In this document: piece after piece, positions 12,001-17,453 of the stretch
Layout: every line of letters begins with the position of its first letter
Numbering within the stretch: the stretch's first letter is position 1
Assembly (NCBI RefSeq): GCF_057098645.1
Contig: NZ_CM169472.1
DNA length: 64,000 bases
Direction: 5' to 3' (one strand)
Program-made: the position numbers

Positions 12001-15000
12001 AAAGACAATACGAATCGCACTTTATCAATTTTCACTTAAAGTATGAACTGGATATCTTTATTCATAAGAACTATTCATCAACAGCGTATAGAGGCGGTTA
12101 TGTAAAACCACTCATTAGCCTCAAAACAAAGACAAACTTCCAGATTTATTACTTAATCAATGAATAACAAGCTTAAAAAATACACTGTTATACTTAAGAA
12201 AAAATTAACAGGCATTAATTAATATTAAAAAATAATATATTAAAATTTCTTAACGGTTTAAGAATTATACAAATAACACTTTGATTAAATTTAATTTTTT
12301 GTATCGATAATTGTGAACTTATCTGGCATGGGGAACTATTTTGAACATGAGGGGTTACGTGGATATGTTGCTTATTACGAGTACTGCTAATATAAAAACT
12401 TGAGAAAGAGATAACGGGTTATATGGTGGTTTATCCCCACTGGCGCGGGGAACTTGAGCCCTGCCAGAATGGGGCCTCTTTTGTACCCGGTTTATCCCCG
12501 CTGCCGCGGGGAACACATTTACTGATTGTACCAGGTAGGAAAAGATCGCGGTTTATCCCCGCTGGCGCGGGGAACTCATGATTGTCGATTTTTTCCGACA
12601 GGATTTTGCGGTTTATCCCCGCTGGCGCGGGGAACTCTCTAAACATAACCTATTATTAATTAATGATTTTTTAAGCCAGTCACAATCTACCAACTTTACA
12701 GTATCACACAAACAACACATCCATTATGTTAAAGAGCACTTAACCAATTGATTAAAAAGGTAAATATTTAAAATAACTCTATACAAACTAAAATCTACCA
12801 AACTTTACCGCAATAATTTTCACTCCAGTGAAAAATTAACGCCACAGAATTTGTAGAGAATGATAATGATTAGTTCAGGATGGGCAAAATGGAGCTTTTT
12901 CAGAGACGACAAAGAATATAAATGAGTAGAAGTCTTTACAGGTTCCACCCATTTATAACGCTTATAAATGTTTAATCAGGCAATATTTAAATATTTATGG
13001 GTTTGCATCGACAAACGCCAATTACGCGCAATGCAGGTTTCAATGCACAAACGTGTGGCATCATCCTTTTGGCTAATCGGCTGCAGTGCAATGACTCGCG
13101 GTTTATCATCGGTCAGCGTCGCCAAAAGTTCATCCAGTGCTTCAATATCACGTACGCGTCCCACTGGGTGCTTGATTTCGTTGGCTCGCTCCAGTGCCTG
13201 TGACAACACTTCATAGCCGCCGCGCATGTTCAGCTTTGGCGATACGGTAACCCAGATATTCGGTGTACAGCGTACCTCATGAGTACCACTGGTCTCGATC
13301 TGGCAGCTAAAACCGTTCTTTTCGAGCAGATCAGTCAGTGGTAGCAAATCATGAATGCAAGGCTCACCACCCGTAATCACCACATGCCGCGCGGTGTATC
13401 CCTGGCGACTAATGACAGCCAACAAGTCTTCACTGCTCGCCGCCCCCCACTTATCACTCTCTTTGGTCTTCGCCAGAATGCTGAAAAGGGAGACTTCCCG
13501 ATCCTCAAGCTTTTCCCAGGTGTGTTTGGTGTCGCACCAGGCACAGCCAACCGGGCATCCCTGTAAACGAATAAAAATGGCGGGGACGCCGGTAAAGTAA
13601 CCCTCACCTTGCAGGGTCTGGAACATCTCGTTAATCGGGTACTGCATAGCATTCTCTGTGAAGTGGATAATTGTTAATTATTGCAGATCCTGCCGCAACA
13701 ATCATGTCTTATTAACATTCTGTTACAGGCAGGTTTAAGGCAAAAAGTGCATTAGATCATAAAGAATAAAATGAAGCGGCGTATTATGTTTTAAGGAATT
13801 AATGAAAAAGGATTTAAACATGCTCAGGATATTCATCGTAATTATATTTATTTTCAATTTATCAGGCTGTGGATATAACGATATTCAAACCTATGATGAG
13901 CAGGTTAACGCCTCCTGGTCTGAGGTATTAAATCAATATCAACGTCGCGCCGATCTTATTCCTAATCTTGTCGCCTGTATTAAAGGTTATTCCAACCATG
14001 AAAAAGACGTTTTGGAAGCCGTAACATTGGCTCGTAGCCAGGCTAATCGCGCCAGCAGCGATCTTCAGCAAGCTCCCGGAGATGCACAAAAATTACAAGC
14101 CTGGCAACAGGCCCAGGCGCAGGTGACTCGCACTCTCGGTCAGTTAACGATAATTAGTGAGCGTTACCCTGAGTTAAAGGCTCAAGAGCTCTATCAAAAC
14201 TTAATGGTACAGCTCGAAGGAAGTGAAAATAGAATTGCCGTTGCGCGAGGAAGATATATTAAAGCCATTGAACAATATAATGTCACTATCCGCAAATTCC
14301 CCGCTGTATTAACCGCAAAGGTCATGGATTACACGCCAAAGAAAAATTATTTACCGGATGATGTCGCCGCAGTAAGTAAAGCCCCAACAATAGATTTTAG
14401 CCAGAATGCTAATGCTCATTAAGCGGGGAAGTTCTGTGCGAAATTTTATCTTCCTTATGGCTTTCTTCTGTTCATCTGTGTTTGCCACACAAATTCCAGT
14501 ACCTGAATCCCCCAAGTATGTGAATGACTTAACCGGCACATTAACAAACAGCGAAGTAAACACCCTGACCAACCAGATTAAAGCCCTGACGCAAAAAAGC
14601 CACGCACAACTGGTCGTGTTAGTGGTTGAAACAACAGGCGATGAAACCATCGAGCAGTACGCAACGCGGGTATTCGATAGCTGGAAACCGGGTGATAAAG
14701 ACCGCGATGATGGCGTTCTACTGTTAGTCGCCTGGCAGGATCATACCGTGCGTATTGAAATCGGTTACGGACTGGAAGGTATTATTACAGATGCGCAGTC
14801 CGGGCAAATTATTCGCAACAGTATTATTCCGGCATTTAAAAATGGTGATCTTGCTGGCGGTTTACAAAAGGGGATCAGCGATATTGAAAGTCGTCTTACG
14901 GGGAATAATTTAGCAACGATAACACCGACCGATCACCCTTTGCCCTTTAGCGGTTGGTGGGCATTGTTAGTCTGGGCGATAGTACTGACGTTTATTTCTG

Positions 15001-17453
15001 CCAGAGGATATATCAAAACGCTGGGAGTAATTTGCTTCGCAGCTATTGTACTGGCCTTTGTTTTACCTATAGCAGGCTTCAGCGGAAGCTGGGGAGTACT
15101 CGCAACATTACTCTGCTTCGCCACACCGTTCCTGGCTGTCGCCATCGCTTTTACCCCCTTCGGCAAAAAAGTTCGGGATTTGATGCGTGATGTCAACCAG
15201 CCATCACGCCATACAAGAAGCAATTCTTCCTCCCACTATTCATCATCGTCATCCTCTTCATTCAACAATGACAATTTCAGCGGTGGTGGCGGTTCATCTG
15301 GTGGCGGTGGCGCTTCCGGGCGCTGGTAACAAAAGGAATTGATATGCGTATTTTTCTCTTACTTCTGATGCTATGCGGTTTTCAGGTATTCGCTGAACAA
15401 TGGCCTTCAGTAACTGACTTAACCGGGACATTAACGACAGAAGAACAAACTGCTTTAACTCAACAATTACAGACTCTCGAGCAGCAAAACCACTTCCAGG
15501 TGGCCGTGTTGGTTACGCCGACCACAGGGGGCAAAAACATTAAACTTGCAGCCTCGCAGAGATACGGGGTATATCACTGGAAACCCGTTGGAGAGAAGCG
15601 ATATGGCGAAGGTATCTTAATTCTCGTCGTATGGCCGGAAGGGCTGGCGTCAATGAAGATTGGACATGGACTGGAACAGATGTTGCCGCCGGAACAAGCT
15701 GCGCAAATTGTTCGTTACCATATGCAGCCAGAATTCGAAAAAAACAATCTCTTTGCTGGATTAACGGGCGGAATTGAAAGCATCGCACAGTTTACCCATA
15801 TCAAAGCGAACCTTAGCCCTTTGGATGCTTTAGCCAATCATCTGTTTGCTAATCCGCAACGTTCGCTGCCATGTCTTGCCTGGACACTGCTGATGATCGT
15901 TGCCATCGTTGTCCTCTGGCGATTTGCCAGCCGCCCACGGCGTGGCATATGGATGATATCGATGATTACCCCTATGGTCTGGTTTTTCTCCTTTCAGGAC
16001 GATGTCATCATTCGGCGGGTGTCGATCGTTTGTTTTAGTTTATTGTTAGCAACAACCTGCAAGCAGCGTCTCGCGGTAGTTTTTAATTTGTGCCGCGTAT
16101 TTCCTATGATGCTGGCCCCAAAAAATAAAAACGCTAAAGTGAAAAAACAAAAGAAGACTCCGCAGGTTCGTGAATCAGGACGAAATTCATTGTTTGTCGT
16201 GATGCTGATAATTATTGTGGGATGGTGCCTGGTGTTCGCCAGTAATAAAGATATTGCATTCATCTCAACAATTATTGGGTTAATTGATCATTTTATCGGC
16301 CCAATAACCATTGCTGGCATCGTTCTGCTGATCATTGTGGCCAAATTTACTGGCAATCTTAAGTTGGGATCAGGAGAAAAAAGCAACAGGAAAACGGGGA
16401 ATCGTAATGCTCACTCTCGCTCTTCGTCGAGAAATTCTTTCCGCGGTGGTGGCGGTTCTTCAGGAGGCGGCGGTTCATCCGGCCGTTGGTGATCGTAATG
16501 CGCTTAATCTTTATTCTACTTGCTTTGTGGAGCCTTCCCGGGCTTGCCCAGCAAATTGCTGTGCCGGAGCTGCGCCAACAGGTGACCGATATTACTGGTA
16601 CGTTAAGCACTTCTGAACAACAATCACTGACACAGCAACTGCAGGATATTACACATAAAACACGGGCGCAGGTCGCTGTATTAGTAGTGCCGTCCACCGG
16701 AGACGATTCCATTGAACAATATGCTACAAGGGTTTTTGATAGCTGGAAACTGGGAGATAAGCAGAGAAACGATGGTATTTTACTTCTGGTTGCCAGGGAG
16801 GATCATGCTGTTCGTATTGAGGTTGGCTACGGGCTGGAAGGGGTGGTTACCGACCTGCAAGCGGCGAAAATTATCAGGGATATATTGATCCCTGCCTTCA
16901 AAAGTGATGACCTGATGGGTGGATTAACACTGGCAAGCGAAAATATCGGCGCGCTTCTGTTGAATGGTGAATTATCGGAAGACAAGGGGGATTATTACAG
17001 TATCAATCCTCCTATTCCATTATCGCTTGCTGTAATTATATTGCTGGCGGTACTTTCATATTTTATTGTTTTTACCGATCCGTCGAATTTACCCTGGATC
17101 ACTCTCACTGGCGCCATTTACGGGATGGTATTCCTCTATGTTGCCGAGCCAGGACCATGGACCAATTTAATCGTTGCCTGCGGTATGTTAACGCCTTTTG
17201 CGATCGTACCACTGGTTATTTTTTGGCTTATCGTCAATAAAAAGCTACGCGCCAAATACAAAAAACTCAGTAAAGAAAGAGCTTCAAGAAAAGGTTCTTC
17301 TTCATCCTCTTCCGGTAGAGGCTCAAGTGGCGGCGGGGTTAGCGGCGGGGGCGGTTCTTCTGGCGGTGGCGGCGCGTCCGGTCGCTGGTAACTCAACCAT
17401 AAAAAACGCCAGCCCGAAGGCTGGCATTTTTAAATCAGATAAAGTCAGACTTA

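What the first reader, a model, noticed from the sequence alone, without database searches (positions are those of the whole stretch)
13802..17391. Four-gene lemA + three TPM-domain paralog membrane module in the queE-eno interval
Directly visible: a LemA-like ORF (N-terminal hydrophobic segment, lipobox-like LSGC) is followed on the same strand by three tandem TPM-domain ORFs with tight junctions (lemA stop overlaps the first TPM start; a 14-nt spacer with AAGGAA RBS before the second; the second stop overlaps the third start), i.e. one translationally coupled operon ending at a hairpin terminator. Each TPM protein has a cleavable-looking signal peptide, a TPM core, C-terminal hydrophobic segments and a Gly/Ser tail. 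LemA-TPM adjacency is a widespread pairing with no experimentally established function. From memory, the K-12 reference carries only a single gene (ygcG) between queE and eno, so this looks like an expanded, strain-variable module. It is the best candidate in the window for an undescribed envelope-associated system.
Basis: partly seen in the sequence, partly recalled or inferred. Interest (0 to 1): 0.62.

Follow-up and report, generated by a model that had tools for sequence, protein, structure and literature searches.

The report
LemA plus three TPM membrane proteins
This is a real, intact four-gene operon for a lipoprotein (LemA) and three membrane-anchored periplasmic TPM-domain proteins; about one in five E. 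coli strains carry it, K-12 keeps only a broken remnant, and its function is still untested.

Summary
Between queE and eno lie four same-strand genes: lemA (Pfam LemA 1e-48) and three TPM-domain genes (Pfam 5e-41, 4e-21, 4e-38). Each TPM protein has a signal peptide, a C-terminal membrane anchor and a Gly/Ser tail ending GGGG(A/S)SGRW. A strong hairpin terminator closes the operon.

The locus varies among 5426 complete E. coli genomes:
- 1102 carry the four-gene form.
- About 340 carry lemA plus a truncated TPM1.
- 3933 carry the K-12 form (yqcG + ygcG).

K-12 is the reduced state, not the baseline. Its small gene yqcG aligns to the 5' end of lemA. E. albertii has all four genes, E. marmotae has three, and Klebsiella has lemA plus one or two.

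lemA followed by a TPM gene is widespread in Proteobacteria (53 of 62 loci). The usual operon is lemA, one long TPM and one short cytoplasmic TPM. Escherichia instead has three long paralogs and no short one, and TPM2 is degenerate.

All four genes are under purifying selection. No defence-system profile matches.

The most likely role is an envelope-stress-linked accessory or assembly module on the periplasmic face of the inner membrane. This is inferred, not shown.

It is a lineage-specific variant of a known, uncharacterised operon type. Interest is moderate.

The parts
13648..13819 (.). Divergent queE / lemA intergenic control region. It holds a PhoP-box-like site at 13721-13737 (+) and Shine-Dalgarno-like AAGGA motifs before both candidate lemA starts.
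   Evidence: The part next to queE (about 90 nt) is almost identical to K-12; the part next to lemA diverges. In K-12, phosphorylated PhoP binds within 300 bp upstream of queE, and deleting yqcG raises queE expression (PMC4974570). A sigma-S ChIP peak maps to queE/ygcG (PMC4447067). The PhoP-like site has 2 mismatches and is no rarer than chance in this window: 20 matches against 15 expected. No strong sigma-70 consensus was found.
13820..14422 (+). lemA: a 200-aa LemA-family lipoprotein. An alternative ATG at 13802 would give 206 aa.
   Evidence: Pfam LemA 1e-48. PDB 2ETD 1.1e-49. Lipobox LSGC with G16/C17 invariant in 17 orthologs. dN/dS is 0.03 against E. albertii. The MamQ model scores 88 bits against a cut-off of 250, so it is not MamQ.
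14436..15329 (+). TPM1: 297 aa. Signal peptide, periplasmic TPM domain, 3 membrane helices, basic Ser/Gly tail ending GGGGASGRW.
   Evidence: Pfam TPM 5.2e-41. PDB 7TBR 6e-22 and BA41 5ANP 1e-19. It keeps 30 of 38 family-conserved positions. dN/dS is 0.17 against E. albertii. Hydropathy.
15344..16492 (+). TPM2: 382 aa. Signal peptide, degenerate TPM domain, about 5 membrane helices with a Lys-rich loop, tail ending GGGGSSGRW. Full-length homologs occur only in Escherichia.
   Evidence: Pfam TPM 3.7e-21. It keeps only 17 of 38 family-conserved positions. The AF2 model still gives the TPM secondary-structure pattern with block-mean pLDDT mostly above 90 (one 10-residue block at 61); the membrane part is at 56-77. 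Full-length relatives are found only in E. coli and E. albertii. Klebsiella relatives keep the signal peptide, membrane part and tail but lack the TPM domain. dN/dS is 0.25.
16498..17391 (+). TPM3: 297 aa from ATG 16498, or 301 aa from the RefSeq start TTG 16486. Signal peptide, TPM domain, 3 membrane helices, Lys/Arg-rich segment, Ser/Gly tail ending GGGGASGRW.
   Evidence: Pfam TPM 3.5e-38. AF2 mean pLDDT 83.9 with helices 175-192, 195-215 and 220-246. Foldseek top hits are BA41, 7TBR, PG0361, TLP18.3 and Psb32, followed by chains of the mycobacterial CIII2-CIV2 supercomplex entries. It keeps 29 of 38 conserved positions. dN/dS is 0.15.
17408..17435 (+). Intrinsic terminator shared with the convergent eno gene: a 7-bp GC-rich stem, GAAG loop and T run.
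   Evidence: Terminator scan. RNA fold -18.9 kcal/mol, z = -5.23, and 0 of 200 shuffles fold as well.

Best explanation
What it is (shown). A single operon is transcribed divergently from queE and ends at the terminator shared with eno. It encodes four proteins.
- LemA has a conserved lipobox, so it is a lipoprotein with its helical-bundle domain in the periplasm. Residue +2 is Gly, not Asp. By the E. coli sorting rule this predicts outer-membrane anchoring (inferred).
- TPM1, TPM2 and TPM3 are deeply diverged paralogs. Each is exported by a signal peptide and carries a periplasmic TPM domain.
- Each is held in the inner membrane by 3 helices (TPM1, TPM3) or about 5 helices (TPM2).
- Each ends in a basic Ser/Gly tail with the motif GGGG(A/S)SGRW. 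The tail is most likely cytoplasmic (inferred from helix count and positive charge).

How it most likely works (inferred). The module is an accessory or assembly and maintenance unit acting on the periplasmic face of the inner membrane.
- The TPM domains would bind and stabilise or assemble integral membrane complexes. Located TPM proteins do this for photosystem II (Psb32, TLP18.3), the cbb3 oxidase (CcoZ) and the mycobacterial CIII-CIV supercomplex.
- LemA would be the periplasmic helical partner or scaffold.
- The three paralogs differ mainly in their membrane anchors, which are about 25% identical. They would therefore address different partners.
- TPM2 has a degenerate TPM domain and probably works through its membrane part and tail.
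- Expression is probably tied to stationary phase and envelope stress. The K-12 remnant at the same promoter region is sigma-S-associated and named for envelope stress, and the region binds PhoP.
For: Identity:
- Pfam, PDB and fold hits.
- Lipobox invariant in 17 orthologs.
- Hydropathy and charge; AF2 helices.
- Junctions of 14 nt or less and a terminator.

A real functional unit:
- dN/dS is 0.03-0.25 against E. albertii for all four genes.
- The module is intact in 1102 complete genomes.
- lemA is followed by a TPM gene in 53 of 62 proteobacterial loci.
- No other neighbouring gene family is conserved in more than 15 of 79 loci, so the unit is self-contained.

Role:
- The best structural matches beyond bare TPM domains are a PSII assembly factor and chains of respiratory supercomplex entries.
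- C. jejuni CcoZ, a TPM protein, is needed for normal cbb3 oxidase activity (PMC8267372).
- Two comparative-genomics papers argue that TPM is a chaperone-like assembly domain and probably not a phosphatase (PMC11237479; Lipocone preprint).
- LemA and TPM genes were both induced in a membrane-stress mutant of F. columnare (PMC13236525).
- Regulation leads in K-12 come and from the RefSeq product name 'cell envelope stress response protein YqcG'.
Against: - No experiment on this operon or on any lemA-TPM operon was found.
- No partner complex is known in E. coli.
- A recent structural paper states there is no consensus on TPM function.
- In vitro phosphatase or ATPase activities are reported for BA42, BA41 and TLP18.3.
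- Most E. coli lack lemA (3933 of 5426 have the K-12 form), so the role is dispensable or replaceable.
- The AF2 model places the invariant C-terminal strand on a beta-sheet. That does not fit a cytoplasmic tail with a periplasmic TPM domain.
- Regulation is extrapolated from the K-12 allele, and the promoter-proximal sequence differs.
- The PhoP-like site is not above chance.
Confidence: 0.4

Rival explanations
1. Periplasmic phosphohydrolase module. The TPM domains are metal-dependent phosphatases or nucleotidases acting on a periplasmic or membrane-surface phosphate ester, and LemA is a regulator or anchor.
For: The Pfam family is named TPM_phosphatase. The closest solved relatives are BA41 (5ANP) and BA42, and activities reported for them are cited. 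Some TPM structures bind metal. TPM1 and TPM3 keep 29-30 of 38 family-conserved positions, including several invariant Asp and Glu residues.
Against: Two independent analyses consider phosphatase activity unlikely, and a structural paper reports no consensus. TPM2 has lost about half of the conserved positions yet is under purifying selection. Its Klebsiella relatives have dropped the domain altogether while keeping anchor and tail. ATP is not expected in the periplasm (general knowledge).
Confidence: 0.15
2. Conflict or defence locus. The variable cassette responds to phage, colicin or contact-dependent toxin attack, for example as a decoy or exclusion factor at the inner membrane. That would explain its polymorphism.
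For: - There are three haplotypes in E. coli.
- Alleles are very divergent: K-12-type YgcG alleles go down to 81% and a TPM3 allele to 68%.
- dS is high around queE and lemA compared with eno.
- CRISPR arrays flank the locus in E. coli and sit inside it in K. spallanzanii.
- LemA homologs occur in some phage records and in a PHROG family.
Against: - No PADLOC model matches any of the four proteins.
- There is no nuclease, NTPase or other effector domain.
- The genes keep a fixed chromosomal position across Escherichia and Klebsiella.
- None of the matches lie on E. coli plasmids.
- dN/dS is well below 1.
- The canonical operon is broadly and stably present across Proteobacteria.
Confidence: 0.07
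3. A decaying relic. The operon is being lost from E. coli and has no current function in the strains that keep it.
For: K-12-type strains have lost lemA except for the yqcG stub. About 340 genomes carry a truncated TPM1 followed by unrelated sequence. E. marmotae lacks TPM2. TPM2 is degenerate.
Against: All four ORFs are intact in the window and in every four-gene genome inspected. dN/dS is 0.03-0.25 over the E. coli-E. albertii divergence. The tail motif and the lipobox are invariant.
Confidence: 0.05

Closest known systems
Canonical proteobacterial lemA / long TPM (YgcG or BA41 type) / short TPM (BA42 type) operon
   Same: lemA comes first and encodes a lipoprotein. It is followed directly on the same strand by a long TPM protein with a signal peptide, TPM domain, membrane anchor and Gly-rich tail ending GGGGASGxW.
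   Different: Escherichia has three long paralogs in place of one. It lacks the roughly 165-aa TPM protein without a signal peptide that follows in 32 of 62 loci. One paralog, TPM2, has a degenerate TPM domain and an enlarged membrane part.
E. coli K-12 yqcG-ygcG (b4682, b2778)
   Same: Same chromosomal slot between queE and eno, the same queE-proximal intergenic DNA and the same terminator. ygcG is a long TPM protein with the same plan and tail.
   Different: Of lemA, K-12 keeps only a 46-codon ORF (yqcG) that retains the signal-anchor segment without the lipobox Cys. There is one TPM gene, not three. YgcG is only 41-45% identical full-length to TPM1 and TPM3.
BA41 of Bizionia argentinensis (PDB 5ANP)
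   Same: Same domain plan, including the tail ending GGGGASGGW. Sequence match E = 1e-19. Foldseek TM-score 0.89 on the TPM domain.
   Different: About 29% identity, from a Bacteroidota organism. Only in vitro ATPase/ADPase activity is reported, and its cellular role is unknown.
Psb32 / TLP18.3, C. jejuni CcoZ and the TPM-fold chains in the mycobacterial CIII2-CIV2 supercomplex entries
   Same: A TPM fold on the extracytoplasmic side of an energy-transducing membrane, acting as an assembly or repair factor or an accessory subunit.
   Different: 15-20% identity. The NCBIfam Psb32 model scores 32-35 bits against a cut-off of 160. Those proteins lack the LemA partner and the Gly-rich tail, and no partner complex is known in E. 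coli.
LemA of Thermotoga maritima (PDB 2ETD) and MamQ
   Same: The LemA helical-bundle domain: E = 1.1e-49 to 2ETD and weak similarity to MamQ.
   Different: The MamQ model scores 88 bits against a cut-off of 250 and there is no magnetosome context. The anchor here is a lipobox rather than a plain membrane helix.

Membership tests
LemA family (PF04011) | Significant full-length match to the LemA profile | tested here: met
   Pfam 1e-48 covering model positions 1-149 of 149. PDB 2ETD 'lemA protein' 1.1e-49.
LemA family (PF04011) | N-terminal membrane anchor before the helical domain | tested here: met
   A hydrophobic N-terminus ending in the lipobox LSGC. G16 and C17 are invariant in 17 orthologs.
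TPM domain family (PF04536) | Significant match to the TPM profile in each of the three proteins | tested here: met
   5.2e-41, 3.7e-21 and 3.5e-38.
TPM domain family (PF04536) | TPM alpha/beta fold | tested here: met
   The TPM3 model has block-mean pLDDT of 85-97 across the domain, and Foldseek gives TM-scores of 0.89-0.90 to 5ANP and 7TBR. The TPM2 model has the same secondary-structure order with block-mean pLDDT mostly above 90 and one block at 61; it was not fold-searched. TPM1 was not modelled.
TPM domain family (PF04536) | Retention of the positions conserved in at least 85% of 59 long TPM proteins | tested here: inconclusive
   TPM1 keeps 30 of 38 and TPM3 29 of 38, so both meet it. 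TPM2 keeps 17 of 38 and has lost E70, R78, D92, D102, R106, G115 and D119 equivalents, so it does not.
YgcG / BA41-type long TPM proteins | Signal peptide, TPM domain, membrane segment(s) and a Gly-rich tail ending GGGGASGxW | tested here: met
   All three proteins have this plan. Nine tail Gly, Ser and Trp columns are invariant in 61 sequences. BA41 has the same tail.
Canonical lemA-long TPM-short TPM operon | lemA immediately upstream of a long TPM gene on the same strand | tested here: met
   There is a 13-nt gap here. The arrangement occurs in 53 of 62 loci elsewhere.
Canonical lemA-long TPM-short TPM operon | A short (about 165 aa) TPM protein without signal peptide, ending NELPDxPVxL, as the last gene | tested here: not met
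   The only TPM hits in the 64-kb window are the three long genes. The Escherichia and Klebsiella loci examined also lack it. The rest of the genome was not searched.
MamQ (NCBIfam NF040966) | Score at or above the curated cut-off | tested here: not met
   88.4 bits against a cut-off of 250.
Psb32 (NCBIfam NF047379) | Score at or above the curated cut-off | tested here: not met
   34.7 and 32 bits against a cut-off of 160, and no hit for TPM2.
Known anti-phage defence systems (PADLOC-DB 2.0) | Match of any component to a defence-system profile | tested here: not met
   No families at E <= 0.01 for any of the four proteins.
TPM 'phosphatase' | Phosphohydrolase activity | not testable with these tools
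   This needs enzymology. The literature is divided.

The most novel reading that the evidence does not exclude
The lemA-TPM unit is a trans-envelope device rather than a simple periplasmic chaperone.
- An outer-membrane-anchored LemA would contact the periplasmic TPM domains of inner-membrane proteins.
- The invariant cytoplasmic GGGGASGxW tails of those proteins would dock, by beta-strand addition, onto a cytoplasmic TPM partner. The state of the envelope would thereby be coupled to the cytoplasm.
- In the canonical operon that partner would be the short TPM protein.
- Enterobacteria lost the short TPM and instead multiplied the long paralogs.
- Most E. coli, including K-12, later lost LemA and left YqcG, a stress-induced small protein, as its stub.

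The AF2 model gives a confident terminal strand after a disordered tail. The short TPM proteins have no export signal. Both facts allow this reading, but neither tests it.
Probability: 0.12. Interest if true: 0.7.

Novelty: new variant of a known kind. Interest (0 to 1): 0.42.

Why it matters
LemA and TPM proteins are among the widespread conserved bacterial envelope proteins for which I found no established role. E. coli offers a natural set of alleles for studying them: the full four-gene form, the form with lemA plus a broken TPM1, and the K-12 stub. These sit at one chromosomal site and can be swapped to look for a phenotype. The four-gene form is present in O157:H7, O55:H7, O145 and some uropathogenic strains but absent from the laboratory strain. 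That absence could help explain why it has gone unstudied.

The finding also re-reads a K-12 gene. The small 'cell envelope stress response protein' YqcG looks like the leftover signal-anchor of LemA. This should be kept in mind when interpreting yqcG phenotypes, including its effect on the neighbouring queE.

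Tried and rejected
- PADLOC search: no hit, so I did not file the module as a defence system.
- NCBIfam: only sub-threshold MamQ and Psb32 hits, so it is a member of neither.
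- Rfam on 12000-18000: nothing.
- Sigma-70 promoter scan of the intergenic region: nothing convincing.
- PhoP-box search: one 2-mismatch site at 13721-13737, but matches of that quality are no more common than chance in the window. I keep it only as a lead.
- Literature searches for LemA with TPM, LemA family, ygcG, yqcG, yqcG with LemA, TPM domain and guessed O157 locus tags found no functional study of the operon. Hemm et al. 2010 on YqcG is not held in the library.
- A search for conserved neighbours of lemA-TPM in 79 loci found none in more than 15 loci.
- I first thought K-12 ygcG might be a recent TPM1/TPM3 recombinant. I rejected this because it is only 41-45% identical full-length to either.
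- RefSeq flags TPM1 of O55:H7 DEC5E as a partial pseudogene, but the ORF is intact end to end.
- A weak Pfam hit of the tails to 'YxzE-like putative bacteriocin' (1e-4 and 6e-4) lies mostly in the Gly/Ser-rich tail. I treat it as compositional.
- Complex prediction of LemA with each paralog could not be done, because the structure tool folds single chains and returns no coordinates.

Full report
**1. Checking the observation**

- The first protein matches Pfam LemA over the whole model (1e-48). A profile of its orthologs matches the solved T. maritima LemA structure 2ETD (1.1e-49).
- The other three match Pfam TPM at 5.2e-41, 3.7e-21 and 3.5e-38. TPM1 also matches the solved TPM domains 7TBR, 5ANP (BA41) and 2KW7.
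- The same DNA, 100% identical, lies in E. coli C325. RefSeq annotates it there as 'LemA family protein' plus three 'TPM domain-containing protein'.
- The hairpin after the last stop codon is a strong terminator: -18.9 kcal/mol, z = -5.2.

Only the start codons need correcting.

- TPM1 most likely begins at GTG 14436, 13 nt after the lemA stop. RefSeq uses it, and the E. albertii and E. marmotae orthologs have ATG there.
- TPM3 begins either at TTG 16486, overlapping the TPM2 stop, or at ATG 16498, 5 nt after it.
- All junctions are 14 nt or shorter, so one operon remains the natural reading. Co-transcription was not tested.

**2. The proteins**

- **LemA.** It has the lipobox LSGC, and the Gly-Cys pair is invariant in 17 proteobacterial orthologs. 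It is therefore a lipoprotein. Residue +2 is Gly, so by the E. coli sorting rule (established knowledge) it should go to the outer membrane. This was not tested.
- **Shared TPM plan.** Each TPM protein has a signal peptide with a small-x-small cleavage motif, an acidic TPM domain, hydrophobic helices and a basic Ser/Gly tail. TPM1 and TPM3 end GGGGASGRW and TPM2 ends GGGGSSGRW.
- **TPM3 model.** The AF2 model is confident (mean pLDDT 83.9) and has three membrane helices at 175-192, 195-215 and 220-246. Its TPM domain superposes on BA41 and 7TBR with TM-scores of 0.89-0.90. More distant matches are TLP18.3, the PSII assembly factor Psb32 and chains of the mycobacterial CIII2-CIV2 supercomplex entries.
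- **TPM2 model.** This model has the same TPM secondary-structure order, about five membrane helices and a Lys-rich loop.
- **Topology.** The odd helix counts and the K/R-rich segments after the last helix place the tails in the cytoplasm. This is an inference.
- **Divergence.** The paralogs are 42-59% identical in the TPM domain and only about 25% identical in the membrane part.
- **TPM2 degeneracy.** TPM2 keeps 17 of 38 positions conserved across 59 long TPM proteins. TPM1, TPM3 and K-12 YgcG keep 29-30.

**3. Variation within E. coli**

Counts among 5426 complete genomes:

| Form | Genomes |
|---|---|
| lemA present | 1451-1454 |
| Four-gene interval, at least 80% covered | 1102 |
| lemA + truncated TPM1 + unrelated 120-aa ORF | about 340 |
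| K-12 ygcG, at least 80% covered | 3933 |

- MG1655 itself reads queE-yqcG-ygcG-eno.
- None of the matches lie on plasmids.
- Four-gene carriers include O157:H7, O55:H7, O145 and uropathogenic isolates.

**4. Direction of change**

K-12 yqcG aligns to the 5' end of lemA.

- At DNA level the local score is 62, against 20 +/- 2.5 (maximum 31) for shuffles.
- In frame, YqcG residues 10-41 align to LemA residues 5-36 (numbered from the 13802 start).
- The lipobox is lost.

So yqcG looks like a stub of lemA. No paper in the library mentions both names.

K-12 YgcG is 41-45% identical full-length (about 50% in the TPM domain) to TPM1 and TPM3. That is as distant as the paralogs are from each other, so it is not a recent deletion product.

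State of the same queE-eno slot in relatives:
- E. albertii has all four genes.
- E. marmotae has lemA-TPM1-TPM3.
- K. quasipneumoniae has lemA plus one long TPM.
- K. spallanzanii-type genomes have lemA, a TPM1-like gene and a TPM2-like gene. The TPM2-like gene has lost the TPM domain but keeps the signal peptide, membrane part, basic loop and tail.
- Full-length TPM2 homologs were found only in Escherichia.

The multi-paralog state is therefore old, and the K-12 state is reduced.

All four genes are under purifying selection. Against E. albertii, dN/dS is 0.03 for lemA, 0.17 for TPM1, 0.25 for TPM2 and 0.15 for TPM3. The locus nevertheless holds very divergent alleles. K-12-type YgcG alleles go down to 81% identity, and one TPM3 allele is only 68% identical. 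Synonymous divergence around queE and lemA (about 0.2) is much higher than in eno (0.02-0.04).

**5. Comparison outside the enterics**

A scan of one genome per species returned 80 LemA loci.

- Of the 62 loci with at least 2.5 kb downstream, 53 have a TPM ORF directly after lemA.
- 32 have the pair 'long TPM with the GGGGASGxW tail, then a short TPM'.
- The short proteins are about 165 aa, end NELPDxPVxL and have no signal peptide or hydrophobic segment, so they should be cytoplasmic.
- Only E. albertii had three long genes.
- No other neighbouring gene family is conserved in more than 15 of 79 loci, so the unit is self-contained.

The Escherichia module is thus a variant of this operon type: three long paralogs and no short one. 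No further TPM gene lies in the 64-kb window. The rest of the genome was not searched.

**6. Function**

I found no experimental study of a lemA-TPM operon.

- For TPM domains in general, a recent structural paper says there is no consensus on function.
- In vitro phosphatase or ATPase activities are reported for BA42, BA41 and TLP18.3 (cited).
- Two comparative-genomics papers argue for a chaperone-like role in assembling membrane complexes and against a phosphatase role.
- The TPM proteins with a known location are extracytoplasmic partners of membrane complexes. Examples are Psb32 and TLP18.3 with PSII, CcoZ with the cbb3 oxidase and the mycobacterial supercomplex chains.
- A LemA-like domain is described as a membrane-proximal helical scaffold in a 2026 preprint.

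Regulation leads come from the K-12 allele: a sigma-S ChIP peak, PhoP binding upstream of queE together with an effect of yqcG deletion on queE, and the RefSeq name of YqcG.

These are inferences, and I give the whole explanation a confidence of 0.4. The rivals score lower:
- a true phosphohydrolase, 0.15;
- a conflict or defence cassette, 0.07, with no PADLOC hit;
- a decaying relic, 0.05.

**7. An unexplained point**

In the TPM3 model the Ser/Gly tail is disordered. The last eight residues, the invariant GGASGRW, are nevertheless predicted as a beta-strand with pLDDT of about 89. The only sheet in the model belongs to the TPM domain. This does not fit a cytoplasmic tail and a periplasmic domain in one molecule.

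One possibility is that in canonical operons the tail docks onto the cytoplasmic short TPM. I could not test this, because the tool folds single chains and gives no coordinates. TPM2 shows no such strand.

**8. Verdict**

The module is strain-variable and uncharacterised. It is not, however, an expansion of the K-12 state or a new kind of system.
- It is a lineage-specific variant of a widespread, annotated lemA-TPM operon.
- The most useful new points are the three-haplotype structure of the queE-eno slot, yqcG as a lemA stub, and the contrast with the canonical operon.
- Interest is moderate, at 0.42.

Noticed in passing
window 11896-12637: A short CRISPR array lies between ygcE and queE. 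It has four good copies of the E. coli type I-E repeat (CGGTTTATCCCCGCTGGCGCGGGGAAC) at about 61-nt spacing (12426-12637) and two degenerate copies at 11896 and 11945. RefSeq annotates a CRISPR at this position in other strains.
   Followed up: partly
L003 3139-3279 (= MG1655 yqcG, b4682) versus window 13792-13854: K-12 yqcG, annotated as 'cell envelope stress response protein', aligns to the 5' end of lemA and keeps its hydrophobic segment without the lipobox. No paper in the library links the two names.
   Followed up: yes
L002 4789-6092 (E. coli M8; about 340 genomes): This is a third haplotype. lemA is intact and TPM1 is cut after 224 codons. It is followed by unrelated DNA encoding a 120-aa hydrophobic hypothetical protein.
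   Followed up: partly
L093 6858-8468 (Klebsiella spallanzanii-type contig): A CRISPR array sits between the lemA-TPM module and eno; its repeats translate as VYPRWRGEH / FIPAGAGNT. A related contig (L094) has an epimerase gene there instead.
   Followed up: no
L093 6001-6858, L094 5379-6191 (P0027, P0028): The Klebsiella relatives of TPM2 have lost the TPM domain. They keep the signal peptide, membrane region, Lys-rich loop and GGGGASGRW tail, which suggests that the anchor and tail have a role of their own.
   Followed up: partly
L090 2289-3185 (E. coli O55:H7 DEC5E): RefSeq flags TPM1 as an incomplete pseudogene. The ORF nevertheless translates without interruption to GRW-stop and is 97.6% identical to the window protein.
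   Followed up: yes
window 13820-14419 (LemA): LemA matches PHROG 1383, labelled 'virion structural protein' (6e-24). It also has homologs of up to 48% identity in 40 phage records, mostly Enterococcus, Listeria and Acinetobacter phages. Some of these records may be host contamination.
   Followed up: partly
window 12976-14422 versus L091, L092: Within E. coli, synonymous divergence is far higher in queE (up to 0.25) and lemA (about 0.2) than in eno (0.02-0.04) on the other side of the module.
   Followed up: no
window 17368-17388 (TPM3 residues 290-297): AF2 predicts the invariant C-terminal GGASGRW as a confident beta-strand after a disordered tail. This is hard to reconcile with the predicted topology.
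   Followed up: partly
L095 6001-6906 (P0024): This is a four-gene variant from a sequencing-run assembly. TPM1 and TPM2 are 91% identical to the window proteins but TPM3 only 68%, which points to mosaic alleles within the module.
   Followed up: no
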